From Verrucomicrobiota bacterium (GTDB taxonomy: Bacteria > Verrucomicrobiota > Verrucomicrobiia > Limisphaerales > JACRJZ01): DNA of 64,000 nucleotides. A program made the position numbers and the translations under genes. Where the stretch lies: NCBI GenBank assembly GCA_016219875.1, contig JACRJZ010000150.1, positions 870-64,869 of the forward strand. Reading direction: 5' to 3'. The number at the start of each line of letters is the position of its first letter. Positions within the stretch are counted from its first letter, which is position 1. Of the stretch, positions 18,016 through 40,552 are shown piece by piece. The notes under the pieces are model-generated. The model saw nothing but the letters and a program-made list of their open reading frames with translations. It was not told the origin of the DNA and did not search any database.

Positions 18016-18624
18016 TCAAGTCGGCGGCGGGTCGGCCGCGCGGACGTCTTCACGCTCGGCCCGCCGCAACCGCTCTTTGGCCTCGCCAGCGATCCACTGG
18101 GCAAAACTGCCCGTGGCGGCCTCTTCACAGTCGTTCGCGCGGCACCACACCGCCCCGTCTTCGACTGGCGATCCGCGCAGCGCCATCGCCGCCATGACCC
18201 GGGCCAAAAACCGCTGGATGACCGCGCGGTTCCTGTCCCGGAACCACTGGATCACCTTGCCGTTGGGAACCTGGTCGTGGAACAACCGTTGCAGATCCCG
18301 GTCACGGCGGGCCAGTTCGGCCACCCGCAACGAGCCATAGACGCCGTGACTGTAGGCGTACGCAACCAGGGCCAGGACCATCCACGGCGCGTACAGCCGG
18401 GAGGCCTCGAGCGAAAACGCCGGTCGCACGGCCGCGTCATCCTCGTCCCGGGCCTGTTGCACAATCAGGTCCGCCAAACCGCCCTCCGGCATCCACTCGG
18501 CCAGGTTCGCCGGCCACGGGCGGCCTTTCCATATTGCTCCACCCCGATTCCCGACGCCGGCGCCCTGGCCAGGCCCGGCCTCCGCCTCCTTCGTCTCAAC
18601 CCCGTCCAACAAATCGATGCTCAT
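18016..18624 (-). CDS. hypothetical protein
   Basis: 202-aa ORF with protein-like composition and its own terminator. The only AT-rich stretch in the window (18625-18725) lies just upstream, shared divergently with the HAD gene. No recognisable motif. Confidence 0.5.
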   Translation of the reverse strand: MSIDLLDGVETKEAEAGPGQGAGVGNRGGAIWKGRPWPANLAEWMPEGGLADLIVQQARDEDDAAVRPAFSLEASRLYAPWMVLALVAYAYSHGVYGSLRVAELARRDRDLQRLFHDQVPNGKVIQWFRDRNRAVIQRFLARVMAAMALRGSPVEDGAVWCRANDCEEAATGSFAQWIAGEAKERLRRAEREDVRAADPPPT

Positions 18625-19594: not shown

Positions 19595-21121
19595 ATGTTA
19601 GCAAAGGTCTGCTCAGCGGCGGTCAACGGCATCGAAGCGTTTCCGGTCGAGGTGGAAGTGAACGCCGGCTGGGGCGATACTCTCATTGTCATCGTCGGCC
19701 TGCCCGACGCCGCCGTGAAGGAATCCCGCGACCGCGTGAGCACGGCCCTGAGCAACTCCGGCTTCAAGTTCCCGATGGGCCGCACCACCATCAACCTGGC
19801 GCCCGCCGACGTGAAAAAGGAAGGCCCCAGCTTCGACCTTCCCATCGCCCTCGGCATCATCGCCGCCTCGGAACAACTCGAAACCGACCAGCTCGACAAC
19901 TTTGTCACCGTGGGCGAACTGGCCCTGACCGGCGCCGTCCGTCCCGTGAAAGGCGTGCTGCCCGTGGCGTTGCGCGCCAAGGCCGAAGGCAAAGTGGGCG
20001 TGCTCGTCCCAGCGGACAACGCCGCTGAAGCCGCGGTCGTGGACGGCTTGCAGGTGATCCCCATCCAGAACTTGCGCGAAGCCGCCCAGTTCCTCGAAGG
20101 CGAAATTCGGATCGCGCCGACGAAAGTGGACCTCCGCGCCGTGTTCGAGCAAACGTGGAATGAGGAACTCGACTTCGCCGATGTGAAAGGGCAGGAGTCG
20201 GTGAAGCGTGCCCTGGAAATCGCCGCAGCCGGCGGGCACAACGCCATTCTGCTGGGCAGTCCCGGCACGGGCAAATCCATGCTTGCCAAGCGGCTGCCGA
20301 CCATTCTGCCGCCGCTGACCCTGGACGAAGCCCTGGAGACGACGAAAATCCACAGCATCGTCGGCCTGCTGGCCGCGGGCCAGGCGCTGGTAACGCGCCG
20401 TCCGTTCCGCTCGCCGCACCACACCGCCAGCGATGCGGGTTTGTTGGGCGGAAACATCAATCCCACGCCCGGCGAAATCTCCCTGGCCCACCACGGCGTG
20501 CTGTTCCTGGACGAATTGCCGGAGTTCAAGCGGAGCGTGCTGGAAACGCTTCGCCAGCCGCTCGAAGAAGGCCGCGTCACCATTTCGCGCGCGGCGGGGA
20601 CGATGACTTTTCCCTCGGAGTTCATGCTCATCGCCGCGATGAACCCGACGCCCGACGGCAAGATGCCCGGCGAATCACGATGCTCGCCGCGCGAAATCCA
20701 GAACTACCTCGGCCGCATCTCCGGCCCGTTGCTGGACCGCATCGACCTGCACGTGGAAGTGCCGGCGGTGAAGTTCCGGGAGATTTCCGCCGAGCGCACC
20801 GGCGAAACCTCGGCACAGATTCGCGAGCGCGTCGTGGCCGCGCGGCGACGACAGCAGGAGCGGTTCAAGGAGCGGGCCAAAGTGACGTGCAACGCGCGGA
20901 TGGGCACCCGCGAACTGAAGCAGCATTGCGAACTGGACGAGACGGCCAAAGGGCTGATTCAGTTTGCGATGACAGACCTGAACTTGAGCGCCCGCGCCTA
21001 CGACCGCATCCTCAAAGTCGCCCGGACCATCGCCGACTTGACCGGCTCGGAGCGCATTGTCCCCGATCACGTTTCGGAAGCGATCCAGTACCGCTCGCTG
21101 GACCGGCAGATTTGGGGCTGA
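19595..21121 (+). CDS. comM: YifB/ComM family Mg-chelatase-like AAA+ ATPase
   Basis: N-terminus [22 protein letters not shown] is typical. Walker [12 protein letters not shown]; FLDELPEF; C-terminal ComM domain. Confidence 0.85.
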
Positions 21122-21186
21122 GGGCCGCGCGCCGGGATTGGACCGATCCGACGGATCAAGCCGGGATCACCCGACCAAGGCGCTCC

Positions 21187-23541
21187 TCACTCCGCCTTCT
21201 CGAACGGCACCGTGAACCAGAAGGTCGAGCCTTGACCGACGGTGCTGTCCACGCCGATGCGCCCGCCGAAGCGGTCAATGAGGAGTTTCGAGATCGCCAA
21301 GCCCAAGCCCAGACCGCCGTGGCGCCGGCTGTGCGAACCGTCCACTTGCGTGAAGGAGTCGAAGAGCCGCTGCTGGGCTTCGATCGGAATACCGATGCCG
21401 GAGTCGATAACACTGAAGCGCAGCATGACCTGGTTTCCGTTCTCCGACTCGCGCACCACGCCCACGCCGATCTCGCCGCTCTCGGTGAACTTGATGGCGT
21501 TGTCGAGCAGATGATGCAGGACCTGCCGCACGGCGTCGGGCTGGCCGCGCAGTCGCGCGGGCAGCGCCTCCGGCAGCAGCGTCTGGAACTTCAACTGCGC
21601 GTTCTGACAGCGGGCGCGCGTTTCAGCGAGGCTCGTCGTCACGAGTTCCTGGACGCTGAAGACGCTGGCCTGCGCCACCGAGTCGCCGGATTCGATGGCG
21701 ATGAAGTCGAGAATGCGGTTGATGGAACTCAGAAGGCTCTCGGCACTGGTCTGAAGGGTTTGGAGATAATCCTGTTGTTCGGGATCGAGATCGGTTTGCT
21801 GCAGGATGTTTGTCATGCCCAGCACGCCGTTGAGCGGGGTGCGCAACTCGTGGCTGACGGTGGCCAGGAAGTCGCCCTTGGCCCGATTGGCGGCTTCGGC
21901 GGCTTCTTTGGCCTGGATCAGTTCCATGTTTTTCACCACCAGGGCGGCGCTCTGTTCCTCGAGAAGTTTGTTGGCGCGGCGCAACTCTTCGTAGAGCCGG
22001 AACTTGCTGATGACCACGCCGGCGCGTCCCGCCAGCGTGCTGAGGTAATCGAGATCGTCCGGCTTGAACTGGCGGGGCTGGTCCTCCACCGCAAACAGCG
22101 CCCCCAGCAGCTTCCCCTGATCCAGTAACGGCTGGGCGACGTAAGCGCCGACGGGGCTTTCCGGTTGGCTGACGTGAAACGGGTCGTCTTGGGCCGCGTT
22201 GGAGGAGACGAACGACTCGCAGTGCTCCGTCATCCACTCGAGGATCGCGGAAAACTGCGTCGCCGGAGACAGCCCGCGCGCGACGGCCACCGAAGAAAAC
22301 TCCGACGCGGCCACGACCACGCCTTCGTCGCTGCACAGCAGCAGGCAGGCGCCGGTTTTCGCTGGCAGATGACGCGCGGCGGCTTGGGTGATGCGCTGCA
22401 ACACGGCCGTGAGGTCTTCCTGCTGGTCGATGTTGAACTCGATCTCGGCGATGGCGGTCTGGCGGCGGTATTGGCGTTCGAGGCGCTCCTGCTCGGCCAG
22501 CAGAGCCGCGGCGGCGCGCTGGCGCTCGGTCATGTCGCGGAAGGCCGTCACCATGGCCCGGCGGCCTTTGTAGGGAAGCTCTTTGCTGAACAACTCCAGC
22601 GGCAGTTCCGACTTGTCCGCGCGGCGGATCACCGCTTCAAACGGCCGGTAGTTCCCCAGCAGGATGCTGTCTTCGACCAGGCTGCGCGAACTCAGGGTGA
22701 ACCAGTCGAGCAAGTTCTTGCCGGCCAGTTCGGAGGCCGGGCAACCGACCATTTTGCCGAGCGTGGGGTTGGCTTCGATGATGACGCCTTTCTCGTGGAT
22801 CGCGATGCCCTCGAACGTGGCCTCGTACCAGCGTTGGAATTTCTCCTCCGTGTCCTCGTCCAACGGCGGGGGCGGCGGCGGTGGCTCTGGAGACGGCTCC
22901 ATGTTGGAGCGGCGTCCGGTGAGGAGGTGCCGCAAGGTCAGCCGCTGCAGCCGTTGCACCACAAAGGCCAAGGCGGCGGCCCCGGCCAGCCCCCAAGCGA
23001 AGGAATGCCACGCGGGCGAAAAGCCGGCGCCCCAGGCCAAGAAAAACCAGCCGCTCAAGCCCACCGCCACGACCACCGCCAGCCACGTCAGCGAAAACAG
23101 GAAGTAGCCGGCGCAGATCAAGGCCAGCGCCAGCGGCAGGGTTTTCTCCGGGGCGTTGCCCGTGGAGAACCACGCCAAGCAATTCAGCACCACGAGCGTG
23201 GCCACCAGCGCGCCCAGCGGGTCCGCCCAACGCAACGGCAGCCGCGGCAGCAGCAGCCGAAGCACGAGGAAGAAGAGGCCGCTGACCAGCGCGATCACCG
23301 GCGCCGAGAGGGCCGCCCAATGGGAGCCGGACGCGTCCTCCGTGAAGACGAACGGCAGCCGGCTGAGGCTCGGCAGGTAGGCCGCCGCGGCGGTCAAATG
23401 CAGCACGCCGAGCGCGGTGACGACCGCATGCAAGTGATCCCGGCCCAGCATTTCCAGGGACGGGGCCGGCGGCACTTGGGACGCCGCCGTCCGGATCGGG
23501 TCGCGCCGCGGCTCGTTCAGGAATTTGAAGTGCGACGTCAC
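21187..23541 (-). CDS. sensor histidine kinase (membrane N-terminus, PAS and GAF-like regions, HisKA + HATPase_c; no receiver)
   Basis: H-box [17 protein letters not shown]. ATPase G-boxes DSGIGIP and [15 protein letters not shown]...GQGSTFWF. Hydrophobic segments at the N-terminus. Start codon uncertain. Confidence 0.75.
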
Positions 23542-23545
23542 GGCG

Positions 23546-24793
23546 TCAGCCGGCGGACTTGCGGCCCTTCAGCAGGCGGCCCCGCAGCGCGAAGGTGAGG
23601 GCCTTCACCGTGACTTCGATGAAGAGAAACGGTTTGGCGATGAGATCGTTGCCGCCGCTCAGCGTGGACTGGGCGCGGGAGGAGAAATCCGTGTGGCTGG
23701 TGACAAAGACCACCGGCGTCGCCCGGTTGGTGTCGGTGGCGCGAATTTTGGAGCAGAGGGTGAAGCCGTCCATGCCGGGCATCTGCACGTCCAGGAAGAT
23801 CACGTCGAACGACCGCTGGGCCGCCAGGGCCAGGGCCGCGTCCGCGCAGTCCGCGTTCTCCGGCCGGTCGAACGCTTTCTGCAGCGCGAACGTCAAGGCC
23901 CGGCGCGCCAGCATGTCGTCGTCCACGACCAGAATGCCGACCGGCGGCACGTCGGCCAAGTCCGGGTTGAGGCCCGGCGCACAGAGGTCCTTGAGCAAGT
24001 CCAGCGCGGTGGCGGCGGTGCGCAGCGTGGAGGGCGTGACCGTCTTGGGCTTTTCGCAGAGTTCCTTGATCAGCGCTTCCAAGGCGGAAGCGACGCGGGC
24101 CGCGGGTTTCATTCCCGCCAAGCCCGCCTTGCTCGTCAGCGCATGGACTTGCCGGTAGAAGTTGTCCAGCGCCGTCGTGCGCGCGGCTTCGTCCTGCGTT
24201 TTGCTGACCTCCTGAAACAACTTGCGCAAGGCTTGCAGATGTTCCGGCGCATGATCGAAAAACGCCTTGGCCGCGTCCACTTCGGCCGGCGCGCTCTTCT
24301 GCCGAAGCAAGTCCTTCAGTTGCGCATTGGTGACGGCCGCAGGCGTCGGCGCCGGGCCGGGACTCGGAGCGGGGGCGGTCGGCGCGGGTGCGGGCGGAGA
24401 CGCGGGAGCGGCGGGGGCGGCGCTCTTTTTTCCCAGGGCCGTGGCCAGGGCGTCGGCCACTTGCCGCGGCGTGAGCGTGCCTTTGTCCAGCACGGTGGTG
24501 GCCCCGGCGGCAATCGCCTCGCCGACCATCGTGGACACGTAGGCGTTGGTGAAGACGACGATGGGCAGCGTCTTGAACGAGACTTGGGCGCGGATCTTCT
24601 TGAGCAACTCGACGCCGTTCATCTTGGGCAGCATCAAGTCGAGCAGGACCGCGTCCGGCTGGGTGTCGTGGATGCCGTAATAGCCGCTTTGTCCGTCCGC
24701 GAACACCTGGACCGCGTAACCCTCCTTCTCGAGCCGGCTGCGGTAGATGTGGGCGACGATCGGGTCGTCTTCGATGATCAACAACTTTTTCAT
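23546..24793 (-). CDS. response-regulator-type protein with two receiver domains separated by an Hpt-like helical region (REC-Hpt-REC)
   Basis: REC1 [10 protein letters not shown]...LLDLMLP...VFTNAY. Pro/Ala-rich linker. Hpt-like [20 protein letters not shown]2 ILVVDDDML...[11 protein letters not shown]...FVTS...IAKPF. Paralogous to residues ~40-450 of the downstream giant protein. Confidence 0.75.
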
Positions 24794-25070
24794 CTTGCGT
24801 TACGCAATGGAGAGTGGCGGGGGCGGGTCGGGCACGGCGAGACTGGGCCGGTGGCGGGCCGCCAACGCGGCGGCGCGGAGCCTCGCCAGCACAAGCCAGC
24901 CGTTGGAGCGGGGCTGGGCGGCGCGCTGGTCCGGAGCCGATGGCCGCGGAGGATGAAACCCGTCCGGGATCGGAATGGCCGCAACGCCGGCCCCGACGCG
25001 AACCGGCGATGGGGGCCGCGGCGTCTCGTGCTGGGGGTTGGCGGGGCTGGGCCTCATGGATCGTAAGCGG

Positions 25071-28000
25071 TCAGTCCGCCGGGCACGCCGAGGCGACCGG
25101 TTCGTGGTCCGTGGAAGCGGACGGCGCAGGCGTGACGGTGATCACGTTGGCCGGAGTGCCGCCCGACGGGTCAGTGGCCGGCGAGTTGGCCGCGCCTCCT
25201 TCGGCTTCGGAAGCGGCGTTGGTGCGCAGGGCCGCCACGACCGCGTGGAGGGGCGTGGCCAACTTGGTGCGGAATTCCTCGGCCATCTGCGTGGTGCGCC
25301 GGGCGGCCAGGCGGACTTCCTCGTGGGCTTTGGCCAGAACGGTCTCGGCCTCTTCGCGCCGCGCGGCGGCGGATTGGAGTTCCGTCAGGAACTGCGCGAT
25401 GTCGCCGGACGCCGACTGGAGCACGGAATGGAGGTGAGTGCGGACTTCCTGCAAGGCTTTCTCCAGGATTTCCCGCTGGGTCAACTCCTTCTTGACACGT
25501 TCGTTGGCCCGGTCGAGCGCCTGCTGGGATTGCTGGAAGAGCTGTTCCCACTCGTCGCGCTGGCGGCGCAACTCGGACGCGGACTTCTGCTGCAAGGCCG
25601 CGCGCTGGGCTTCGGCCTGGGCCGCCTGCACATCCGCGGCGGCGCGGGCCAACATGCGGCCCTGTTCGTCGAAGCGCGCTTGCAGCGTTTGGTTGGCCAG
25701 CAAGAGCGCCCGTTCCGCATCGCGGCGACGGGCCAAGTCCTTCTCGGCGGCCGTCAAGCGCCGCGTGGCTTCCGCCAGTCCCTGCTCCAACTCCTCGGTC
25801 CTGACGCGCGCGAACGAAGATTGTTCGTGGTCGGTCAGGAGCGAATGCAGTCGGGCTTCGGTTTGGGCGAGGGCCACGGCGTTCTGGTCGAAACTCGTGC
25901 GCAGGGCCTCCTGTTCCTTGCGCAAGGCGGTGGCCGCTTCCTGGCTCTCGGCCAAATCCTTCACAAGTTGGTCGTGACTCGCGGACACGTCGGCGAGACG
26001 GTCTTCGAGTTGGCGCCGGCGGGCGGTTTCCTCTTCCAGGTGGGCCTTGGCCGACAACAATTCCTCCGTCACGCCCTCCGATTTCGCCGAGGCCGTCATC
26101 TGCTCTTGGGCGTCGGCCACGGCCTTGGCTAGAGCGGCCTGGGTTTCGTGAAGTTGCCGTTCCAGGGTGGCGCGCTGCTCGACCAAGGCGGCGGCGGACT
26201 GATCGCGCTGGGCCAGTTGGTCGCTCAAGCCGGCGTGTTGGCGGGCCAGTTCTCCCGCCTCGGCCTGAACCTGCTCTCTCTGCTGGCGGGCTTGCTCCAA
26301 CTCCGACTGGCTCTGGGCCAGCTCTCCGGCCAGCGTCTGAAGTTTCTGCCCCAAGTCGGCCTGGGTTTCGTGGAGTTGCCGTTCCAAGGTGGCGCGCTGC
26401 TCGGCCAAGGCGGCGGCGGACTGATCGCGCTGGGCCAGTTGGTCGTTCAAGCCGGCGTTTTGGCGGGCCAGTTCTCCCGCCTCGGTCTGGACCTGCTCTC
26501 GCTGCTGGCGGGCCTGCTCCAACTCCGACTGGCTCTGGGCCAGCTCTCCGGCCAGCGTCTGAAGTTTCTGCCCCAAGTCGGCCTCGGTCCGCGTGATCGC
26601 TTCGAGTTGCGTGAGCCGCTCCTGAAGAGTGGCGTTCGTCTGGAGCAACTCCGTGTTGGCCTGCTGGAGCGACTCCGCCTCCCGCGCGCGGGTGGCGAGT
26701 TCGTCGCGGGTCTGCTGTTGCTGACGCAAATTTTGCTCCAGTTCGCCCTTGTTGCGGGCCAGACTTTCCGAAAGCGACCGGCACTCGCGTTCCAGTTCCG
26801 CGCGGGCCTCACTCAGCTTCTCGCTGTCCGACATCCGGCTCGCGAACGCCGTGTTGGCCTGGGCCAGTTCGGCGTTGGTCTTTTTCAAGCCGTCCGCTTC
26901 CCGAGTCAGCGCGTCGAGTTCATCCCAAAGCTGTTTCTGCTGCGTCTGACTCTGTTCCAACTCGGAGCGTTGGCGGGCGGATTCCGCGGCCATCGACTCC
27001 AGCTTCTGCTCCAGTTCGCCGCGGCCCTGAGTGGCGCTTTGGGCCTGTTCTTGCAGGGCGCAGTTGGTGCGGGCGAGTTCGGCGTTGTCGAGCCGGAGCA
27101 GTTCCGCCTCGCGGGCCAAGCCGTTGAGCTTCTCGCGGAGTTGTTGTTGCTGCTGCTGGTTCTGCTCCGTTTCCGTGCGGTTGCGGGCGAGGTCGGCGGC
27201 CAGAGATTGGACCTGCTGTTCGAGGCGGGCCGCGGTCTGGGCGCCTTGCTGCGCTTGGGCAAGCTGCTCCTTCAGCGCCGCGTTGGCGGTCGTGAGATCG
27301 CCGGCGTCGCGCGTGAGGGCCGCAAGCTGGGCCTGGAGCCGCTGCTGTTCAAGTTGGTTTTGTTGCAGCGCGGAGGCCGCCTCTTGGAGTGCGGCCGCTT
27401 CCTGGCCCATCTGGTCCCGCTGGGCGTTGGCACGGTTCAAGTCGGCGCGCGTCTGGACCAGTTCGCCGGTCACGGATTCGATGCGGCGGGCCAGTTCCTC
27501 ATTGGAGCGCTGCAAGGCCATCACGGTTTCCTGCGGCTGCATGATCTGCTCCTGCATCCGGGTGTTCGTGGAGGACAAGAGGTCCAACTGCTGTTCGAGA
27601 TACTCGCGGCGCGTCAGGGTTTGCTGCAACTCCTCGCGCACGCGGGCGAGTTCCTGCTCCATCTGCGCCAGGCGTTCGGCTTGTTCGGGCGAAGTAGTTT
27701 CGGCGGGCGCGGGGCCGGATTCCTGTTGCGCGAGGCGCTTTTCAAAATCGGCGGCCACTTCCGAGAAATCGTTGGCAAGCTGTTCGGCCTGGGCGCGAAG
27801 GCTGGTTTCCTTTTCCAAGCTCGCCCGGAGTTGCGCCAGTTCGGACGTGAGCGCTTCGACCTGGCTGCGCCAAGCTTCCTCGTTCACGGCGGCGGATGGC
27901 GCTCCCGACGCGGGCGCGGCGGTGGCCGCAGACTGCAACGCGGCCGCGCGCTCTTCAGTTTCGGCGTGGGCGGCGAGCGCCTTGTCGAGTTCGGCCTGGG

Positions 28001-29858
28001 CTTCGGCGAGTTGCAGTTCGGCCCTCTGAAGGCGCTGCTCAAGGTCATACTGCGCGCGGCGCTGCCCTGCGCCGAGCCATTGGTCCAGACTGCGCACCAC
28101 GGCGGTGATGCGCTCGTACTTGCCGACCACGATTTTCTTCAGCACGACATTGGCGGGGAATTGGGAGCCGTCTTTGCGTCGGCCAATGATCCAACTGCCT
28201 TTGGCTTCGGAAGTGGCTTCCCCCAACGGCGGCGTCGGGCCGGTGCCCGAAGGCCAGCCGGTCGGCACCAGCGTTTCAATGGACAAGCCGGTCAGTTCCA
28301 TCGGCAAGTAGCCGAAGAGGCTGGCGGCGGTCGGATTGAGGGACTCGATCTTCCCCTCCTGGTCGAGCGTGATGATGCCAAACGTGGTGGGCGCGGTCGG
28401 TGCAGCAGCCTCCGCCGGTACGGCCGGCGATCCCATGGCCGGCTGGGCCGGCTCTGTCGGCGGCTCCATGCTCAGCCGCAGTGGGGCGGCGGGCGCCTCG
28501 CTCACGGCCGCGCTTTCGGGAGCCGGCTCCGGAGACGCCGCTGGTTCCGGCTGAATCTCCGGGGCGGCCGCGACTGGAAGCTCGCGCGACGCCGGCGGGG
28601 CGCCGAGCCGCGCCCTCATGCAGTGGACCATCGCCTTGACGGCCAGTTCCATGAAGATGAACGGCCTGGCAATCAGGTCGTCGTGGGCGCTGGGCAACGC
28701 GTGGAATTCCTTCTCGAACTCCTTCGCCGGGGCGACGTGGACCACGGGCGTTTCCGCCCGCTCCGGCAACGCGCGAATCGCGCTGCTCAGATCGGCCCGG
28801 CTTCGGTCGGACTTGGTAAAATCCACGATGAGCACGTCCGGCCGAGCTTCCCGCAGCCAGTTCAAGGCGGCCTCAGTGTCGCCGACCTGGACGACTTTGA
28901 ATCGGACCTGCTCCAGCGCCTTGGCCATGACCATGCGGCACAGCGGGTCGTCGTTGGCCACCAGCGCCTGGAACGGACCGGACTGGCAGCGATGTTCCGC
29001 TTCGGCGGCTTGCTCAAAAATCAACGCGAGCACGTCGATGGCCTGCGACACCGTCCGGCGGCTGGAGGAAGTCACCTGGACCGGTTTCTCGTGGAGTTCC
29101 TTGAGCAGCGCTTCCAGGGTGGCGCACTGCTGGGCCACGAGATTGAGTCCGGCACTGGCGGCGCTGCCGGTCATGGCGTGGACCTTGTGATACAGCTCCA
29201 GCAAACGGCCCAATTGCTCCGCGCCGGAGGGCATCTGGAGGAAGGCCAGCAATTCCTTGCGCGCGGCGGCAATCTTCTGGGGCATCTGGAAAACAAAGTA
29301 ACGCGCGGCCGGCGATTCAGCCTTGGGGCTGGACTCGCCCACCAACGCCGTGGCGCCTTCGCGGGCAGGCTCCTGCGACGCGGACGCGTCGGGCGAGGGC
29401 GTGCTTTCCAGACCCAGCCCTTTCTGCACGGAGGCGACGATGTCTCTGGGTGGAGTCACGGCCTTGTCGAAAACTTGATTGGCGCCACTGCGGGAGGCTT
29501 CCTCGCTCATCTCACTCAGAAACGCGTTGGTGAAAACGAACACCGGCAGGTGTTCCAGCGAGCCAGGTTGGGCGCGAACTTTCTTGAGCAGCTCCACGCC
29601 GCTGCCCTTCGGCAGAATCAGGTCCAGGAGAATGGCGTCCGGGCAACGCTTCTCAATCTTGGTCCACGCGGCGGCGCCGTCAGGCGCGGATTCCACCTCG
29701 AAGCCGGCCTCCTTGAAGTTGTTCATATAAACGAGCCGGACGACCGGATCGTCATCGACAATGAGGATGCGCTTCGGCCCACTGTTCGGCTGATCGAACC
29801 CTGATGCCACTTCGTCCACACCTGCTCCCGGTTGGGGAGCTGCAACCGTGTTATCCAT
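25071..29858 (-). CDS. giant (~1600 aa) REC-Hpt-REC(pseudo)-PAS-coiled-coil protein
   Basis: ATG (reverse) at 29856-29858 gives MDNTVAAPQ; alternative GTG at 29903. REC1 ILIVDDDPVV...LLDLILP...VFTNAF. Hpt-like YHKVHAMTGSAASAGL. Second receiver with NDD/ARPF substitutions. PAS FGIITLDQEGKIESLNP. About 900 aa of heptad-rich Q/E/A/L/R coiled coil including two near-identical 74-aa repeats. Confidence 0.7.
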   Translation of the reverse strand: MDNTVAAPQPGAGVDEVASGFDQPNSGPKRILIVDDDPVVRLVYMNNFKEAGFEVESAPDGAAAWTKIEKRCPDAILLDLILPKGSGVELLKKVRAQPGSLEHLPVFVFTNAFLSEMSEEASRSGANQVFDKAVTPPRDIVASVQKGLGLESTPSPDASASQEPAREGATALVGESSPKAESPAARYFVFQMPQKIAAARKELLAFLQMPSGAEQLGRLLELYHKVHAMTGSAASAGLNLVAQQCATLEALLKELHEKPVQVTSSSRRTVSQAIDVLALIFEQAAEAEHRCQSGPFQALVANDDPLCRMVMAKALEQVRFKVVQVGDTEAALNWLREARPDVLIVDFTKSDRSRADLSSAIRALPERAETPVVHVAPAKEFEKEFHALPSAHDDLIARPFIFMELAVKAMVHCMRARLGAPPASRELPVAAAPEIQPEPAASPEPAPESAAVSEAPAAPLRLSMEPPTEPAQPAMGSPAVPAEAAAPTAPTTFGIITLDQEGKIESLNPTAASLFGYLPMELTGLSIETLVPTGWPSGTGPTPPLGEATSEAKGSWIIGRRKDGSQFPANVVLKKIVVGKYERITAVVRSLDQWLGAGQRRAQYDLEQRLQRAELQLAEAQAELDKALAAHAETEERAAALQSAATAAPASGAPSAAVNEEAWRSQVEALTSELAQLRASLEKETSLRAQAEQLANDFSEVAADFEKRLAQQESGPAPAETTSPEQAERLAQMEQELARVREELQQTLTRREYLEQQLDLLSSTNTRMQEQIMQPQETVMALQRSNEELARRIESVTGELVQTRADLNRANAQRDQMGQEAAALQEAASALQQNQLEQQRLQAQLAALTRDAGDLTTANAALKEQLAQAQQGAQTAARLEQQVQSLAADLARNRTETEQNQQQQQQLREKLNGLAREAELLRLDNAELARTNCALQEQAQSATQGRGELEQKLESMAAESARQRSELEQSQTQQKQLWDELDALTREADGLKKTNAELAQANTAFASRMSDSEKLSEARAELERECRSLSESLARNKGELEQNLRQQQQTRDELATRAREAESLQQANTELLQTNATLQERLTQLEAITRTEADLGQKLQTLAGELAQSQSELEQARQQREQVQTEAGELARQNAGLNDQLAQRDQSAAALAEQRATLERQLHETQADLGQKLQTLAGELAQSQSELEQARQQREQVQAEAGELARQHAGLSDQLAQRDQSAAALVEQRATLERQLHETQAALAKAVADAQEQMTASAKSEGVTEELLSAKAHLEEETARRRQLEDRLADVSASHDQLVKDLAESQEAATALRKEQEALRTSFDQNAVALAQTEARLHSLLTDHEQSSFARVRTEELEQGLAEATRRLTAAEKDLARRRDAERALLLANQTLQARFDEQGRMLARAAADVQAAQAEAQRAALQQKSASELRRQRDEWEQLFQQSQQALDRANERVKKELTQREILEKALQEVRTHLHSVLQSASGDIAQFLTELQSAAARREEAETVLAKAHEEVRLAARRTTQMAEEFRTKLATPLHAVVAALRTNAASEAEGGAANSPATDPSGGTPANVITVTPAPSASTDHEPVASACPAD
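26141..26584. repeat. tandem duplication, 2 x 222 bp, near-identical, inside the coiled-coil coding region
   Basis: Unit 1 at 26141-26362, unit 2 at 26363-26584. A handful of mismatches give 4 aa differences between the 74-aa protein repeats ADLGQKLQTLAGELAQSQSELEQARQQREQVQ(T/A)EAGELARQ(N/H)AGL(N/S)DQLAQRDQSAAAL(A/V)EQRATLERQLHETQ. Confidence 0.85.
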
Positions 29859-30017
29859 AGTTTTGTCCAGTTTCAGAGCACTTCGACGCAATCTTATCGA
29901 CACTTCGGGCCGTGAGCTTTAGCTGCCGAAACCGTCTTGGAAACCGAAATCCTTGGCAGGGACTGCGAGGGTCTGATCTCGCCCTTCAGGCGGAGTCTTG
30001 ACGAAATCCAGCCAGTC

Positions 30018-34544: not shown

Positions 34545-34630
34545 CTGCAGGTTAGAAAACCTGCGCTACGGCAGACCAGAAAGTCTGCGCTACGAGTGCT
34601 CCCGAACCGAGCTTGATGCAGCCCTGCCTG
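34545..34630. repeat. family B element fragment
   Basis: CTGCAGGTTAGAAAACCTGCGCTACGGCAGACCAGAAAGTCTGCGCTACGAGTGCTCCCGAACCGAGCTTGATGCAGCCC, carrying the right-hand terminal inverted repeat only. Confidence 0.5.
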
Positions 34631-34700
34631 GCGTCGTTACGGTGATTTTCGCCATTGACGATTCTTCCTTCGCCCCCAATCTTCCCCCCCGCTTGTTCGC

Positions 34701-36866
34701 ATGAAAACCGTCTTGTTTGTCTGCACGGGGAATGTCTGCCGCAGTCCCATGGCAGAAGGGCTGTTCCGGCACGCCACGCAGGGTCGCTTCCGCGTCCTGT
34801 CGGCGGGCTTGGGCGCGGTCGCGGGCATGTCTCCCAGCGACTACGCGGTGCGGGCCATGCGCGAGCTGGGCGTGGACATCGCCGGCCTCCGCAGCCAGCC
34901 GCTCACGGGCGAGTTGGTGCAGCAGGCCGATTACATCATCGGCATGACCCGCGGCCACGTGGAAAGCATCCTGGTGCTCTATCCGCAGGCGGCGGAGAAG
35001 ACGTTTCTGCTCCGCGAATTCGATGACACGCTGGAAGAATACGAGCGGGACATCAACGACCCCATCGGCGGGTCGTACGATATTTACTGCCTCTGCCGCG
35101 ACCAGATCGAGCAGGGCATTTTCTCCATGTTGAAATTCATTGAACAGACCTCCGGCTCTCCGGCTCCCGCCAGCGTGCCGGCCGCCGTCCACAACATCGC
35201 CGTGGGCGCGGACCATGGCGGCTTCGAACTGAAGGAAACGCTCAAGCAACACCTGCAAACCGGCGGGTGGGCCGTGAGTGATTTCGGCGCGAAGTCCAAA
35301 GAGCCGTCGGATGATTACCCGGATTTCGCGCTGGCCGTGGCGCACAGCGTGGCCGATCACCAGAACGACGTCGGGGTGCTGATCTGCACCAGCGGCATCG
35401 GCATGAGCATCGCCGCCAACAAAGTGCCCGGCGTGCGCGCGGCCCTGGCCGTGGACGACGCGATGGCGGCCGTGGCGCGCCGGCACAACAACGCCAACGT
35501 GGTCTGCCTTTCGAGCAAGGCCACACCCGAACAGGCAAAGAAGATCGTCGAGGCGTTCCTCGCGGCGAAATTCGAGGGCGGCCGCCACGAGCGGCGCATC
35601 AACAAGTTGGAAGCCGGCTGGAGAGGCCCCGCCTACAAGCTGCAGAGCGTTGATCCGGAGATTTACGAAGTCATCCAGCACGAGCGCCAGCGTCAGCAAG
35701 AGAACATTGAGCTGATCGCGAGCGAGAATTTCACCAGCCCCGCCGTCATGGAGGCGCAAGGTTCGGTGCTGACAAACAAATACGCCGAAGGCTATCCCTC
35801 CAAACGCTGGTACGGCGGCTGTGAGAACGTCGATACCTCCGAAACGCTGGCCATCGAACGGGCCAGGAAGCTCTTCGGCGCCGAACACGTCAACGTCCAG
35901 CCCCATTCCGGCAGCCAGGCCAACATGGCCTGCTACTTCGCCTTCCTGAAGCCCGGCGACCGGATGCTGACCATGGACCTCAGCCACGGCGGCCATCTGA
36001 CCCACGGCAACAAGGTGAATTTCTCCGGGAAGTTTTTTGAGATCGTCCATTACGGCGTCAGCAAGGACGACGAGCGCATCGACTACAACCAGCTCGCCGC
36101 GCTGGCCCGCCAGCACAAGCCCCGGATGATCACTGTGGGGGCCAGCGCCTATCCGCGCTTGATCGACTTCCAGCGCCTGAGCGAGATCGCGCAGGAAACC
36201 GGTGCGATGCTCCTGGCGGACATTGCGCACATTGCGGGGCTTGTCGTCGCCGGACTGCACCCCAGCCCGGTGCCGTACGCCGACTTCGTCACCACCACCA
36301 CGCACAAGACGCTCCGTGGCCCGCGCGGCGGCCTGATCATCTGCAAGGCGAAATACGCGAAGGAAATTGACTCGCAGGTGTTCCCCGGTATCCAGGGCGG
36401 CCCGCTGGAACATGTCATCGCCGCCAAGGCCGTCTGCTTTCAGGAGGCGCTCCGGCCGGAGTTCAAGTTTTACCAGCAACAAATCCTGGCCAATGCCCAG
36501 GCCCTGGCTGACGGCATGAAGCGAAACAGTTTCCGCCTGGTGAGCGGCGGCACGGACAATCACCTCATGCTGGTCGATGTGGGCGCGCGCGGCCTGACCG
36601 GCAAGGAATGCCAACTCGCGCTCGACGAAGCCGGCATCACCGTCAACAAGAACACCATCCCGTTTGAAACCCGCTCGCCGTTCCAGGCCAGCGGGGTCCG
36701 CCTCGGCACGCCGGCCGTGACCACACGCGGCATGAAGGAGAAAGAGATGGCCGCCATCGCCGACATGATCAGCGAGGTGTTGATGGACATCAAGAACCTT
36801 GACGCCGCCCGCAAGGTAAGGCAACGTGTCCGCGAACTGACTGCCGGATTCCCCCTGCCTTACTGA
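34701..36866 (+). CDS. single 721-codon ORF encoding three enzymes in frame: low-MW protein tyrosine/arginine phosphatase, ribose-5-phosphate isomerase B, serine hydroxymethyltransferase
   Basis: LMW-PTP P-loop [13 protein letters not shown] plus DPIGG. Rpi[14 protein letters not shown] and active-site [48 protein letters not shown] and PLP-lysine [13 protein letters not shown]. No stop codon between the domains; the linkers are [16 protein letters not shown] and [26 protein letters not shown]. Confidence 0.7.
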
Positions 36867-37015
36867 ATTTGTCGTTCGAGTAAGTCGTCCGGTGTCTCCA
36901 ACACACAGGCTGTTGGCTTGAAAACGATTCAAGCCCCTGGCGAAACGAATCTGGTTCCAGAGAAAAGACAGCCGTGCGGCGCCCTGCGCCACTAACATTG
37001 AACTAACTTTTACCT

Positions 37016-38692
<1,677 letters not shown>

Positions 38693-38733
38693 AGCCGCCC
38701 GCGGTTTCAGAAGCGGGGCCGCCCGCACCAGCA

Positions 38734-38939
38734 GGGCTGCACCAAGCTCCCGCCCGGCGCACAGGTAACGCAGGTTTTCAACCTGCCGTAGCGCCGACTT
38801 GCAGTCGGCAAGGCCGTGAAACGTCCCGCCGGCTGGCCTCTTCCAACGCTCGCCGGTTGGAAAACCGGCGCTACGGCAGACTGGAAAGTCTGCGCTACGA
38901 GTGCTCCCGAACCGAGCTTGATGCAACCTGCCGTGTCCG
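38734..38939. repeat. family B MITE-like element, complete, with terminal inverted repeats
   Basis: Left end GGGCTGCACCAAGCTCC, right end GAGCTTGATGCAACC. Internal GTAACGCAGGTTTTCAACCTGCCGTAGCGCC, GCCGACTTGCAGTCGGC, GCCGGTTGGAAAACCGGCGCTACGGCAGACTGGAAAGTCTGCGCTAC. Confidence 0.65.
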
Positions 38940-39025
38940 CCGCGCGCCTTTTTCCTTTCCGCCGCGCGCGGTTCGTGGCAAGTCTTCGCCGTTGACGCAA
39001 ATTCAATCACCGAAAAACTGCAACC

Positions 39026-40318
39026 ATGGAACAGATCAATCGTCGGACTTTCATCGGCGCGGCAGCGGCGGGCACCGTTGCCTTGGGCGGCGTCCTCAAC
39101 CAGGCGGACGCCGCAAGTGACACCGCCCAAAAACTCAAGCTGGGCCTGATCGGCTGCGGCTGGTACGGAATGGTGGACGCCAAGGCGGCGCTCAAGGTGG
39201 GCGGAGTGGAGATCGTCGCGCTGTGCGACGTGGACGGCGACCACCTCGCCAAGAACGCCGACGAAATCGAGAAACTCCAAGGCTCACGGCCGAAGACCTT
39301 CAAGCTTTACGACGACCTGCTCAAGACGCCCGGCCTTGAAGCGGTGATCATCGCCTCGCCGCCGCAGTGGCACGCGCTCCAGTTCATCGCGGCCTGTGAG
39401 AAGGGCCTCGACATCTACTGTGAGAAACCGCTCGCCTACGACCTCCGCGAAGGCCGGGCGATGGTGGAAGCGGCGAAGAAAAGCGGGCGCATCGTCCAGA
39501 TCGGCTTCCAGCGCCGCCAAGCCGCGGCCATCCGCCAGGCGCGCAGTTACATTCAGGAGGGCAACCCTGGCCGCGTCGTTTGCGTGGAAGCGCAGATTCA
39601 TTACACCGCCGGCACCAAGGACGCCACGCCGCAAGCCCCGCCGCCGTCGCTCGACTGGGACCTCTGGTGCGGCCCGGCCCCGAAGATTCCCTACAGCCCG
39701 CAAGTCGGCCACATGAACTGGCGGCTGGAGAAGACCACCGGCCACGGTCATCTCGTGGATTGGGGCATCCACCTCATCGACGCCACGCGCTGGATTCTGG
39801 GTGAATCGACACCCCGAACCGTTTCCGCCAGCGGCGGCATTTACCAACTCAAGGACAAGATCACCACGCCGGACGTGCTCACGGCACATTTCGAGTTTGA
39901 GAAATGCCCCGTCACCTGGCGCCACCGAATCTGGGGCGCGGAGGAATACGCGCCGGAAGTCTCCAACGGCCTCTTCTTCTACGGCGAGAAGGAAACCGTC
40001 TTCGTCACCGACGACAAGTGGATCGTCATCCCGCGCGGCAAGGGCAAGGAGCGCAAGGTCAACGAAGCCAAATCCGATGCCGGCAAAGCCCACATGGCGG
40101 ATTTCCTCGACGCGGTGCGGACGCGCCAACAACCGTCCTGCCTGATCGAAGATGCCTTCCAATCGACCGCCACGGTGAAGTTGGCCATGATCGCCTACGA
40201 CACTGGCGCGAAGATCACTTGGGACGGCAAGGCCGAACAGATCGTCGGCCACGACGCGGCGGCGAAACTGCTCAAACGGGAGTACCGCGCGCCGTGGCAA
40301 CATCCGTGGCGACGGTGA
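39026..40318 (+). CDS. Gfo/Idh/MocA family oxidoreductase with twin-arginine signal
   Basis: TAT motif NRRTFIGAAAAG. Rossmann LGLIGCGWYG. Family motif EKPLA. Confidence 0.75.
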   Translation: MEQINRRTFIGAAAAGTVALGGVLNQADAASDTAQKLKLGLIGCGWYGMVDAKAALKVGGVEIVALCDVDGDHLAKNADEIEKLQGSRPKTFKLYDDLLKTPGLEAVIIASPPQWHALQFIAACEKGLDIYCEKPLAYDLREGRAMVEAAKKSGRIVQIGFQRRQAAAIRQARSYIQEGNPGRVVCVEAQIHYTAGTKDATPQAPPPSLDWDLWCGPAPKIPYSPQVGHMNWRLEKTTGHGHLVDWGIHLIDATRWILGESTPRTVSASGGIYQLKDKITTPDVLTAHFEFEKCPVTWRHRIWGAEEYAPEVSNGLFFYGEKETVFVTDDKWIVIPRGKGKERKVNEAKSDAGKAHMADFLDAVRTRQQPSCLIEDAFQSTATVKLAMIAYDTGAKITWDGKAEQIVGHDAAAKLLKREYRAPWQHPWRR

Positions 40319-40360
40319 ACCGCGGCTTGCCATTGGGACCGGATTCACTACCTTGGGCGC

Positions 40361-40552
40361 ATGAGCGATAAACAGGCGGCGTTGGAAGCGATCCAGCGAT
40401 TGCCAGAGCGTGCCTCCTTCGACGACATCGCGAAGGAGATCGAGTTTCTGGCGGGCTTGCGTACCGCCGAAGACCAAGTGCAGCGCGGGCAAGTGCTCCC
40501 TCTTGAACAATTGGAGCGGAACCTGGAGCAATGGCTTTCGCCGTCATCGTAA
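40361..40552 (+). CDS. putative antitoxin (partner of the downstream RelE/ParE toxin)
   Basis: 63 aa. It overlaps the downstream toxin start by 22 nt (typical type II toxin-antitoxin arrangement). No strong family motif recognised. Confidence 0.5.
   Translation: MSDKQAALEAIQRLPERASFDDIAKEIEFLAGLRTAEDQVQRGQVLPLEQLERNLEQWLSPSS

What the first reader, a model, noticed from the sequence alone, without database searches (positions are those of the whole stretch)
21187..29903. Minus-strand signalling operon: a 1600-aa REC-Hpt-REC-PAS-coiled-coil protein, a paralogous REC-Hpt-REC protein, and a PAS/GAF sensor kinase
Three consecutive minus-strand genes (25071-29858, 23546-24793, 21187-23541) lie within 5-280 bp of one another. 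The first protein combines two receivers (the second with NDD/ARPF substitutions, so possibly a pseudo-receiver), an Hpt-like helix bundle (YHKVHAMTGSAASAGL), a PAS domain and about 900 aa of continuous coiled coil. The second gene is a free-standing paralogue of the first ~450 residues of the same REC-Hpt-REC module (both share VFTNA(F/Y) and LLDL(I/M)LPK). The kinase has no receiver of its own. A receiver fused to a very long coiled coil is the architecture of FrzS/AglZ-type motility or polarity scaffolds in Myxococcus. Combining it with an Hpt and PAS domain plus a soluble REC-Hpt-REC copy is not an arrangement I can place in any described system. This is a candidate for a phosphorelay-controlled cytoskeletal or polar scaffold.
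Basis: partly seen in the sequence, partly recalled or inferred. Interest (0 to 1): 0.75.

Follow-up and report, generated by a model that had tools for sequence, protein, structure and literature searches.

The report
Phosphorelay operon with giant coiled-coil regulator
An uncultured Verrucomicrobia bacterium carries a real three-gene signalling operon: a membrane sensor kinase and two related phosphate-passing proteins, one fused to a rod about 110 nm long; this arrangement has not been studied, what it controls is unknown, and the rod's length is not conserved in relatives.

Summary
Three minus-strand genes encode:
- a 1595-aa REC-Hpt-REC-PAS-coiled-coil protein (25071-29858);
- a 415-aa REC-Hpt-REC paralogue (23546-24793; 34% identity, E=4e-59);
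- a 784-aa multi-TM-PAS-GAF-HisKA-HATPase kinase with no receiver (21187-23541).

The kinase core resembles TorS/BarA-type hybrid kinases, and both REC-Hpt units align to the TorS REC-Hpt region. I therefore read the operon as a split His-Asp-His-Asp phosphorelay with two paralogous relay modules.

In the giant, REC1 and the Hpt histidine are intact. REC2 keeps its Asp but has lost three of the five catalytic residues, so it is a pseudo-receiver.

The same gene order recurs in three other metagenomic Verrucomicrobiota contigs. In those the "giant" is 749, 777 or 1393 aa. Only the head and tail of the rod are conserved; the middle is an expandable tandem-repeat spacer.

Free-standing REC-Hpt-REC proteins form a large, uncharacterised Verrucomicrobial family that almost always sits beside kinases.

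Nothing links the operon to motility, pili or the cytoskeleton. The FrzS/AglZ analogy is architectural only.

Verdict: a new variant of a known kind of system, of moderate interest.

The parts
25071..29858 (-). Giant gene: 1595-aa REC1-Hpt-REC2(pseudo)-linker-PAS-coiled coil-tail protein
   Evidence: ORF and translation. Identical to the NCBI protein P0001, named 'response regulator' from a Verrucomicrobia bacterium. Pfam hits. AlphaFold model of residues 1-640.
29418..29771 (-). Giant REC1 (aa 30-147), canonical receiver: DD 36/37, D79 (codon 29622-29624), T110, K132
   Evidence: Pfam Response_reg residues 31-137. pLDDT above 90. All five catalytic residues are invariant in the four giant orthologues.
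28986..29312 (-). Giant Hpt-like four-helix bundle (aa 183-291) with His227 (codon 29178-29180)
   Evidence: Aligns to gene 2's Pfam-supported Hpt. The NCBIfam TorS model spans giant residues 28-273, matching TorS 701-956. Four helices with pLDDT about 90. His is invariant. Pfam itself gives no Hpt hit for this protein.
28602..28973 (-). Giant REC2 (aa 296-419), pseudo-receiver: N-D instead of D-D, D346 kept, Thr->Ala, Lys->Arg
   Evidence: Residue comparison against 40 family members. Receiver fold at pLDDT 85-94. It meets the pseudo-receiver definition of PMC12632262.
28380..28583 (-). Pro/Ala-rich disordered linker (aa 426-493)
   Evidence: 19% Pro. pLDDT below 50.
28059..28379 (-). PAS domain (aa ~494-600)
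   Evidence: Pfam PAS_9 at 28.6 bits against a cutoff of 27. Stronger in the orthologues: P0192 at 36.7 bits and P0191 PAS at 36.2 bits. The best outside matches are small PAS-HisKA-HATPase kinases. The AlphaFold model is poor here.
25254..28058 (-). Coiled-coil rod (aa ~601-1535); Pro-free 776-1535 (~113 nm if fully coiled)
   Evidence: The 3.5-residue periodicity is dominant and gives z=22 against shuffles. Composition is 59% A/Q/L/E.
26079..27371 (-). Array of ~72-aa tandem repeats within the rod (aa ~830-1260)
   Evidence: Segment-against-self BLASTP gives copies at 35-52% identity, and the last two copies are 92% identical.
26135..26588 (.). 222-bp x 2.0 near-perfect tandem DNA duplication (95% identical)
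   Evidence: Tandem Repeats Finder, score 838. The copy number could be mis-assembled.
25074..25253 (-). C-terminal Pro-rich tail (aa 1536-1595); with the preceding ~70 aa it forms the conserved rod end
   Evidence: Tail aa 1465-1589 aligns to the 777-aa orthologue P0190 at 661-772 and to P0002.
24794..25070 (-). 277-bp GC-rich intergenic spacer between the giant gene and gene 2
   Evidence: Sequence. No terminator-like or promoter-like site. No Rfam match.
23546..24793 (-). Gene 2: 415-aa free-standing REC1 (D52) - Hpt (H217) - REC2 (D335), all catalytic residues intact
   Evidence: Pfam REC x2 at E=1.3e-46 and Hpt at 29.3 bits. Residues checked. TorS REC-Hpt alignment over residues 3-241. 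Identical to P0070.
21187..23541 (-). Sensor histidine kinase: multi-TM (aa 35-205) - PAS (245-339) - GAF (375-511) - HisKA (554-619, His564 codon 21850-21852) - HATPase_c (667-781); no REC, no Hpt
   Evidence: Pfam: GAF, HisKA and HATPase_c pass their cutoffs; PAS_9 scores 26.7 bits, just under its cutoff of 27. Hydropathy. The core is closest to TorS (254 bits) and BarA (253 bits). H-box position.

Best explanation
The three genes form one operon that encodes a multistep His-Asp-His-Asp phosphorelay split over three polypeptides.

**Proposed steps**
1. The membrane kinase (multi-TM, PAS, GAF) autophosphorylates on His564.
2. It phosphorylates a canonical receiver (REC1) of a REC-Hpt-REC relay protein.
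3. The phosphoryl group then moves to the Hpt histidine and on to a terminal receiver.

**Two paralogous relay modules**
- One is the small free-standing protein. It is the ancestral, widespread partner of the kinase and acts as a CheY-like or hub output.
- The other is fused, through a disordered linker, to a PAS domain and a dimeric coiled-coil stalk. Its terminal receiver is decaying into a pseudo-receiver.
- The two REC1 domains carry different, separately fixed alpha-1 residues. I therefore expect them to have different phosphodonors. For example, the kinase may serve gene 2, and an Hpt (or the kinase with different kinetics) may serve the giant.

**Output**
- None of the three proteins has a DNA-binding or enzymatic output domain. 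The output must be protein-protein interaction, assembly or localisation, mediated by REC2 and by the conserved head and tail of the rod.
- The long middle of the rod is an evolutionarily expandable spacer made of tandem repeats.

**Shown versus inferred**
- Shown: domain content, catalytic residues, paralogy, coiled-coil character, conservation of gene order, and variability of rod length.
- Inferred: the order and direction of phosphotransfer, dimerisation, and the nature of the output.
For: **Domains and residues**
- Domain calls.
- The kinase core is closest to the unorthodox/hybrid kinases TorS, BarA, ArcB and LuxQ. The REC1-Hpt units of both relay proteins align to TorS 701-956.
- DD/D/T/K and the Hpt histidine are intact in gene 2 and in REC1-Hpt of the giant. 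REC2 of the giant reads N-D/D/A/R.
- Across the orthologues REC2 decays in different ways: P0002 has N-D, P0190 has C-G, and P0191 and P0192 are intact.

**Paralogy and divergence**
- The giant and gene 2 are paralogous at E=4e-59.
- At alpha-1 positions that are 97-100% conserved in gene-2-type proteins (H15, R20, L21, E22, E24), both giants carry a different shared set: L, N, F, K, A.

**Gene order**
- Giant, then REC-Hpt-REC, then PAS/GAF kinase is conserved in four loci at 41-59% identity.
- The REC-Hpt-REC plus GAF-kinase pair also occurs without the giant.
- Among more distant family members, about 32 of 33 loci with enough flanking DNA have a kinase immediately adjacent.

**Operon and rod**
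- The 4-bp gap between gene 2 and the kinase, and the absence of a terminator, suggest co-transcription.
- Coiled-coil statistics.
- The head and tail are conserved while the middle is variable.
Against: - There is no experimental data.
- Phosphotransfer order cannot be deduced from sequence.
- The 277-bp gap could hold a second promoter, so the giant may be regulated separately.
- The kinase could instead phosphorylate REC2, or could act mainly as a phosphatase (it has the HExxT motif).
- The giant's PAS call is marginal for this protein (28.6 against 27 bits) and the AlphaFold model is poor there.
- The kinase's own PAS call falls just under the Pfam cutoff (26.7 against 27 bits).
- Dimerisation of the rod is assumed from its heptad pattern only.
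Confidence: 0.6

Rival explanations
1. The giant protein is a FrzS/AglZ-type polar or cytoskeletal scaffold. Its position or assembly is switched by the phosphorelay, and it controls motility, polarity or cell shape.
For: - A receiver plus a very long coiled coil is the FrzS/AglZ layout (PMC1974792, PMC12632262).
- No enzymatic or DNA-binding output exists in the operon.
- REC-Hpt-REC modules fused to 400-1700-aa coiled coils recur in several Verrucomicrobial sequence families: P0192, P0212, P0221, P0229, P0233, P0261, P0327 and P0005.
- A paralogous Hpt-REC protein sits next to pseudopilin-like genes in L003.
Against: - There is no homology to FrzS beyond the generic receiver fold. FrzS's defining missing Asp is not reproduced: D79 and D346 are both present.
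- No pilus, motility or cytoskeleton gene lies in the 64-kb window or is conserved next to the four triad loci.
- Two of the four orthologues that share the operon have only about 130-170 aa of coiled coil. A long rod is therefore not required for the conserved function.
Confidence: 0.2
2. The PAS-coiled-coil part is a relic of a PAS-histidine kinase whose signalling helix was expanded and whose catalytic domain was lost. The giant would then be a pseudo-kinase-like decoy or phosphate sink that tunes flux through the real relay (gene 2 plus kinase) and has no structural role.
For: - The best outside matches of the PAS plus first helix are small PAS-HisKA-HATPase kinases. The alignment runs from the PAS through the helix to the position of the kinase H-box.
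- The conserved tail 'EEFRTKLATPLHAVVAAL' lines up in register with the H-box '[13 protein letters not shown]', with His replaced by Thr (hhalign P about 0.003-0.007).
- REC2 is decaying and rod length is unconstrained.
- A related clade has lost the REC1 Asp and the Hpt His altogether (P0005).
Against: - The tail similarity is not significant: hhalign probability is 5-10% and hmmsearch scores are about 0.
- The histidine at the head position is not conserved (H/R/H/K).
- A sink or decoy does not explain why about 760 aa of heptad repeats are kept free of prolines and stop codons.
Confidence: 0.12
3. The 1595-codon ORF is an assembly artefact or pseudogene produced by the repetitive coiled-coil region.
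For: A 222-bp x 2 repeat at 95% identity and a ~72-aa repeat array could be collapsed or expanded by a short-read assembler.
Against: - The frame is open for 1610 codons with coding-type GC3 (0.81) throughout.
- An independent 1393-aa orthologue from another sample aligns collinearly over head, rod and tail.
- Other giants of 1137-2658 aa exist.
- Only the repeat copy number is uncertain.
Confidence: 0.03

Closest known systems
Unorthodox (tripartite) hybrid histidine kinases with their response regulators: TorS/TorR, BarA/UvrY, ArcB/ArcA, EvgS, BvgS
   Same: - The chemistry and order are the same: H1 (HisKA), D1 (REC), H2 (Hpt), D2 (REC).
- The kinase core scores best against the TorS and BarA models. 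Both REC-Hpt units align to TorS 701-956.
   Different: - Here the relay is cut between the kinase and D1. D1-H2-D2 are fused in one soluble protein, and the terminal receiver has no DNA-binding output.
- There are two paralogous D1-H2-D2 modules in the operon.
- All scores are far below the equivalog cutoffs (254 against 676 bits), so these proteins are not orthologues of the named systems.
FrzS and AglZ of Myxococcus xanthus (receiver plus long coiled coil; polarity and motility)
   Same: An N-terminal receiver-fold domain followed by a long, presumably dimeric coiled coil, with no enzymatic output (PMC1974792, PMC12632262).
   Different: - The FrzS receiver lacks the phospho-Asp and does not bind Mg2+ (PMC1974792). 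The giant's REC1 is fully canonical and its REC2 keeps the Asp.
- The giant also carries Hpt, a second receiver and PAS.
- It has no Frz-type chemosensory or pilus gene context.
- Its rod length is not conserved among orthologues.
PleD-type REC / pseudo-REC tandem response regulators
   Same: - A canonical receiver and a degenerate receiver lie in one chain.
- PleD is the top sequence and fold match in the PDB for the tandem-receiver part.
   Different: An Hpt bundle lies between the two receivers. The output is PAS plus coiled coil, not GGDEF.
'RR1RR2HPt' protein type in the 2015 census of two-component proteins (PMC4558063)
   Same: The domain content is the same: two receivers plus one HPt and no kinase. 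The census counted 130 proteins in 110 species.
   Different: This is a census category only, with no characterised member that I could find. It says nothing about domain order, PAS or a coiled coil.
PAS - signalling helix - DHp stalks of sensor kinases (S-helix; PMC1592074)
   Same: The PAS domain is followed directly by a parallel coiled-coil helix. The nearest PAS relatives are small PAS-HisKA-HATPase kinases.
   Different: The helix runs for about 900 residues and ends without a recognisable DHp or catalytic domain.

Membership tests
Two-component multistep phosphorelay (His-Asp-His-Asp) | A HisKA/HATPase_c kinase with an H-box histidine | tested here: met
   HisKA at 69 bits and HATPase_c at 96 bits. 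The H-box is SHELRTPL with His564.
Two-component multistep phosphorelay (His-Asp-His-Asp) | An intermediate receiver with the five catalytic residues (DD, D, T, K) | tested here: met
   Gene 2 REC1 has E8/D9, D52, T82 and K104. Giant REC1 has D36/D37, D79, T110 and K132.
Two-component multistep phosphorelay (His-Asp-His-Asp) | An Hpt four-helix bundle with a conserved histidine | tested here: met
   Gene 2 scores 29.3 bits on Pfam Hpt (cutoff 24.6) with H217. The giant gets no Pfam hit, but it is homologous over the whole region, H227 is invariant and AlphaFold gives a four-helix bundle.
Two-component multistep phosphorelay (His-Asp-His-Asp) | A terminal receiver able to be phosphorylated | tested here: inconclusive
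   Gene 2 REC2 is fully canonical (D291/D292, D335, T365, K387). Giant REC2 keeps D346 but has N, A and R at three of the five positions.
Two-component multistep phosphorelay (His-Asp-His-Asp) | Actual phosphotransfer between the parts | not testable with these tools
   This needs in-vitro phosphotransfer profiling.
FrzS/AglZ-type coiled-coil pseudo-receiver proteins | A receiver domain that lacks the phospho-accepting Asp and does not bind Mg2+ (PMC1974792) | tested here: not met
   D79 in REC1 and D346 in REC2 are both present. REC1 has all five catalytic residues.
FrzS/AglZ-type coiled-coil pseudo-receiver proteins | A long C-terminal coiled coil | tested here: met
   Heptad periodicity gives z=22, and there is a 760-aa Pro-free stretch.
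FrzS/AglZ-type coiled-coil pseudo-receiver proteins | Genetic or functional link to type IV pili, gliding motility or a Frz chemosensory system | tested here: not met
   No such genes lie in the window or are conserved in the three other triad loci.
FrzS/AglZ-type coiled-coil pseudo-receiver proteins | Sequence homology to FrzS/AglZ beyond the generic receiver fold | not tested
   FrzS did not appear among the best 60 PDB sequence matches for gene 2. No direct comparison was run.
Pseudo-receiver (PsR) domains as defined in PMC12632262 | A receiver fold that lacks at least one of the five catalytic residues | tested here: met
   Giant REC2 has a receiver fold at pLDDT 85-94 and lacks DD1, T and K. 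It is not an aspartate-less receiver.
Verrucomicrobial REC-Hpt-REC hub proteins (unnamed family, about 390-450 aa) | Full-length collinear similarity including the conserved motifs [14 protein letters not shown], the Hpt His and KPFxFxE(L/V)xVKA | tested here: met
   Gene 2 is 50-62% identical at 99-100% coverage to dozens of members. The giant's N-terminus matches at 33-40% identity.
Verrucomicrobial REC-Hpt-REC hub proteins (unnamed family, about 390-450 aa) | A histidine kinase gene immediately adjacent on the same strand | tested here: met
   True for the window, the P0002 contig, L002, L007, L008, L091 and L093, and for about 32 of 33 metagenome loci with enough flank.

The most novel reading that the evidence does not exclude
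Verrucomicrobiota have repeatedly fused a complete Asp-His-Asp relay module to enormous coiled coils: about 110 nm here, and over 1300 residues in P0212 and P0229. On this reading the proteins form a new class of phosphorylation- and PAS-controlled intracellular filaments, tethers or rulers. That would be a signal-gated cytoskeletal element unrelated to FrzS, crescentin or SMC. This operon would be the most tractable example, because its kinase and a soluble paralogue are encoded alongside it.
Probability: 0.17. Interest if true: 0.75.

Novelty: new variant of a known kind. Interest (0 to 1): 0.5.

Why it matters
- **An unstudied signalling hub.** REC-Hpt-REC proteins appear to be a central hub of Verrucomicrobial signalling. 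There are hundreds of 50%-identity clusters, and they almost always sit beside one to three kinases. None has been studied, and databases label them only 'response regulator'.
- **A clean minimal test case.** This operon has one kinase without its own receiver, one soluble hub and one hub fused to PAS plus a rod. That makes it a good system for asking how a relay with a built-in terminal receiver produces an output without any DNA-binding or enzymatic domain.
- **A possible new bacterial cytoskeletal element.** If the rod does have a structural or positional role, it would be a new kind of signal-controlled cytoskeletal element in a phylum whose cell biology is poorly known.
- **A case of module decay.** If the rod has no such role, the locus still documents how receivers decay into pseudo-receivers and how coiled coils grow by tandem duplication.

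Tried and rejected
1. **Species-representative genome scan.** The scan with the giant's N-terminus found only generic receivers in unrelated bacteria and no relatives.
2. **Metagenome contig scan.** The scan with the alignment of four giants returned 80 paralogous REC-Hpt-REC loci and no further giant orthologue. It was useful only for neighbourhood statistics.
3. **Foldseek against the PDB.** The 1-640 model hit only generic receivers, PleD and PorX, which adds nothing beyond the sequence evidence.
4. **C-terminal tail as a degenerate HisKA/DHp.** Pfam gives nothing at E<=1. hhalign aligns the tail in register, but with 5-10% probability. hmmsearch scores are about 0. I kept this only as a low-confidence rival.
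5. **Link to pseudopilin genes.** The link is seen in L003 and perhaps in the P0002 contig, but there are no prepilin-type N-termini or homologues in this window.
6. **RNA elements and signals.** There are no Rfam, promoter or terminator matches in or around the operon above chance.
7. **Other two-component genes in the window.** There are none: phmmer with gene 2 and with the kinase against all six-frame ORFs found only the operon itself.
8. **Better PAS or tail structure model.** This was not possible, because most orthologues came from the representative search and cannot be submitted to the structure tool.
Full report
**1. What is there**

Three ORFs lie head to tail on the minus strand:
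- 25071-29858, 1595 aa from the ATG. The open frame continues to a GTG at 29903.
- 23546-24793, 415 aa.
- 21187-23541, 784 aa.

The gaps between them are 277 bp and 4 bp.

The minus-strand frames have GC3 of 0.81-0.88. The long plus-strand ORFs that overlap them (for example 26148-29804, 1218 aa) show the mirror pattern and are not coding.

The first two proteins are identical to NCBI entries from a Verrucomicrobia MAG on a contig of about 65 kb. Both are named only 'response regulator'.

Downstream, the operon ends at a convergent ComM/Mg-chelatase-like gene (19595-21121 +). Upstream lie a nucleotidyl transferase, a PEP-utilising enzyme and a GH172/DUF2961 protein. No other two-component gene is present in the 64-kb window.

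**2. Domains**

Pfam gives:
- Giant: Response_reg (E=2.7e-30, two stretches) and PAS_9 (28.6 bits, cutoff 27).
- Gene 2: REC, Hpt (29.3 bits, cutoff 24.6), REC.
- Kinase: PAS_9 just under its cutoff (26.7 bits against 27), then GAF, HisKA and HATPase_c above theirs, with no receiver.

Hydropathy adds a multi-pass membrane domain in kinase residues 35-205.

The first 420 residues of the giant are a paralogue of the whole of gene 2: 34% identity over 417 aa, E=4e-59.

An AlphaFold model of giant 1-640 shows:
- a receiver at 30-147 (pLDDT above 90);
- a disordered linker;
- a four-helix bundle at 183-291 (pLDDT about 90);
- a second receiver at 296-419;
- a disordered Pro/Ala linker at 426-493;
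- a poorly modelled PAS region.

The Hpt assignment in the giant therefore rests on homology, the invariant His227, the predicted fold, and above-threshold Hpt hits in orthologue P0191. It does not rest on a Pfam hit in this protein.

**3. Catalytic residues**

I compared against 40 close gene-2-type proteins and four giant orthologues.

| Domain | Residues | State |
|---|---|---|
| Giant REC1 | D36/D37, D79, T110, K132 | all intact |
| Giant Hpt | His227 | invariant |
| Gene 2 | all three phospho-sites and both receiver quintets | intact |
| Giant REC2 | N-D, D346, Ala for Thr, Arg for Lys | three of five lost |

By the definition in PMC12632262, giant REC2 is a pseudo-receiver but not an aspartate-less one.

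The orthologues degrade REC2 differently. P0002 has only N-D. P0190 has C-G. P0191 and P0192 are intact. This pattern suggests relaxed selection on REC2 chemistry in this sub-clade.

At alpha-1 positions of REC1 that are 97-100% conserved in gene-2-type proteins (H15, R20, L21, E22, E24), both giants share a different set: L, N, F, K, A. These positions usually set partner specificity (general two-component knowledge). I therefore infer that the two REC1 domains have different phosphodonors.

**4. The rod**

- From residue 600 to 1535, hydrophobic residues show a dominant 3.5-residue period. The z-score is 22 against shuffles, compared with 0.2 for the N-terminal 590 residues.
- Residues 776-1535 contain no proline. 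At 0.1485 nm per residue that stretch would be about 113 nm long.
- There are proline-containing breaks at about 649-654 and 716-724, and the periodicity is weaker at about 1300-1430.
- Residues about 830-1260 form an array of ~72-aa repeats at 35-52% identity. The last two copies are 92% identical, which corresponds to a 222-bp x 2 DNA duplication at 26135-26588.
- The rod has therefore grown by tandem duplication. Its exact copy number in this assembly is the only part of the ORF open to doubt.

**5. Relatives and gene order**

An exhaustive HMMER search of 1.84 billion cluster representatives with giant residues 1-640 found 492 proteins at E<=1e-30. Only a handful cover REC-Hpt-REC plus PAS: P0002 (1393 aa), P0190 (777), P0191 (749), P0192 (1460), P0261 (1137), P0327 (1158) and two fragments. 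All come from metagenomes or MAGs, and those that are named are Verrucomicrobiota.

The gene order giant, REC-Hpt-REC, PAS/GAF kinase recurs in three other loci:
- the P0002 contig: 1393-404-803 aa;
- L008: 777-421-781 aa;
- L007: 749-390-270+524 aa, preceded by a hybrid kinase.

The REC-Hpt-REC plus GAF-kinase pair also occurs without any giant (L002).

The 777-aa orthologue aligns only to the head (giant 602-707) and the tail (giant 1465-1589) of the rod. About 760 residues of rod are therefore dispensable for whatever the orthologous group does.

**6. The wider family**

- Close gene-2 homologues (54-55% identity) sit at the end of a different cluster. The order is GAF-PAS-HK-REC-Hpt (about 970 aa), REC-HK-REC-Hpt (about 825 aa), REC-Hpt-REC, then HIT-PhoH-YbeY-RecO.
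- The P0002 locus is also followed by HIT-PhoH-YbeY. These are therefore rearranged versions of one signalling island.
- Among 80 more distant loci from soil and sediment metagenomes, about 32 of 33 with enough upstream DNA have one or two kinases immediately upstream on the same strand.
- A related class of 600-727 aa is TM-Hpt-REC-Hpt-REC (P0139). In L003 it follows three pseudopilin-like genes.
- Other sequence families fuse REC-Hpt-REC, sometimes with extra receivers, to coiled coils of 400 to more than 1300 residues. These are P0212, P0221, P0229, P0233, P0261, P0327 and P0005. They usually have no adjacent kinase.
- In P0005 the REC1 Asp and the Hpt His are both lost.

**7. How it most likely works**

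- The kinase core scores best against TorS (254 bits), BarA (253), LuxQ and ArcB. These are kinases that normally carry their own receiver and Hpt.
- The REC1-Hpt units of gene 2 (residues 3-241) and of the giant (28-273) align to TorS 701-956.
- The simplest reading is a TorS/BarA-like H1-D1-H2-D2 relay cut after the kinase, with D1-H2-D2 fused in one chain and present in two paralogous copies.
- Gene 2 is the ancestral partner of the kinase, because the pair exists alone. The giant is an added branch whose terminal receiver is losing its chemistry and which carries PAS and a dimerising stalk.
- No protein in the operon has a DNA-binding or catalytic output. The output must therefore be binding, assembly or localisation.
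- The domain content, residues and synteny are shown. The order of transfer, dimerisation and the nature of the output are inferred.

**8. Comparison with known systems**

- The chemistry matches the unorthodox kinases. All scores are far below equivalog cutoffs, so this is a resemblance of kind, not orthology.
- The receiver-plus-rod layout resembles FrzS/AglZ. However, FrzS is defined by a receiver without the phospho-Asp (PMC1974792), and that feature is not met here. There is also no motility context.
- PleD is the closest solved tandem receiver / pseudo-receiver protein.
- A 2015 census lists 130 proteins with two receivers, an HPt and no kinase (PMC4558063). The domain content of gene 2 is therefore rare but recorded.
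- I found no paper describing a free-standing REC-Hpt-REC protein or its fusion to PAS and a coiled coil.
- The PAS domain and its first helix are most similar to small PAS-HisKA-HATPase kinases. The conserved tail weakly resembles an H-box without its histidine. This suggests, but does not show, descent from a PAS-kinase stalk.

**9. Verdict**

This is a real, conserved and undescribed phosphorelay variant.
- The scaffold or polarity function is an analogy without specific support, and the non-conserved rod length weakens it.
- I rate it a new variant of a known kind, with interest 0.5.
- The most novel reading still open is a signal-gated giant coiled-coil element recurrent in Verrucomicrobiota. 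I give that about 0.17 probability.

Noticed in passing
window 26148-29804 (+): A 1218-aa ORF runs antisense inside the giant gene. It is rich in L, G and R and shows a GC1>GC3 mirror pattern, so it is a by-product of the repetitive, GC-rich coding strand and not a gene. Similar antisense ORFs overlie gene 2 (23525-25066 +) and the kinase (22165-23598 +, 20680-22128 +).
   Followed up: yes
window 34590-40531 (-): Three consecutive large minus-strand ORFs (802, 756 and 415 aa) have no Pfam hit at E<=0.001. They are an unexplored block of unknown proteins about 5 kb upstream of the operon.
   Followed up: no
window 18016-18624 (-): A 202-aa ORF has a weak hit to the N-terminal domain of the DUF772 transposase (27.3 bits, cutoff 23.1). 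It lies between a PLD-like gene and a HAD hydrolase gene and may be an IS remnant.
   Followed up: no
L003 7178-12139: Three pseudopilin-like genes (133, 205 and 576 aa, with prepilin-type N-termini 'FTLIEV' and 'GFTLPEIL') lie directly upstream of a 712-aa TM-Hpt-REC-Hpt-REC paralogue, P0139. The P0002 contig has unknowns of similar size (172, 201 and 570 aa) plus a 550-aa receiver protein straight after the kinase, but no DNA was available for it. This hints that the Hpt-REC family is sometimes tied to type IV pilin-like systems. Nothing of the kind is in this window.
   Followed up: partly
window 25230-25290 (-), giant aa ~1523-1540: The conserved tail motif 'EEFRTKLATPLHAVVAAL' lines up in register with the HisKA H-box '[13 protein letters not shown]', with Thr in place of His. 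The P0261/P0327/P0005 clade ends in a DHp-like 'SLRRQVRQPV...EEQKKL...' segment. The similarity is not statistically significant.
   Followed up: partly
L091 / L093 1596-10900, and the P0002 contig: The signalling genes sit immediately upstream of a conserved HIT-PhoH-YbeY(-RecO) block in several Verrucomicrobial genomes, whatever kinases or hub proteins the island contains. The window's operon is not next to that block.
   Followed up: partly
L001 7851-11306 (P0005), and P0261, P0327: A sister clade of REC-Hpt-REC-coiled-coil giants stands alone, without a kinase. In P0005 both the REC1 Asp (now Glu) and the Hpt His (now Ser) have been lost, so the relay module on the rod is fully 'dead'.
   Followed up: partly
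L010 16048-18321: Next to another giant multi-receiver coiled-coil protein (P0233, 1851 aa) lies a 757-aa protein with a faint crescentin-rod (Rod_CreS) hit, so it is a second coiled-coil protein in the same neighbourhood.
   Followed up: no
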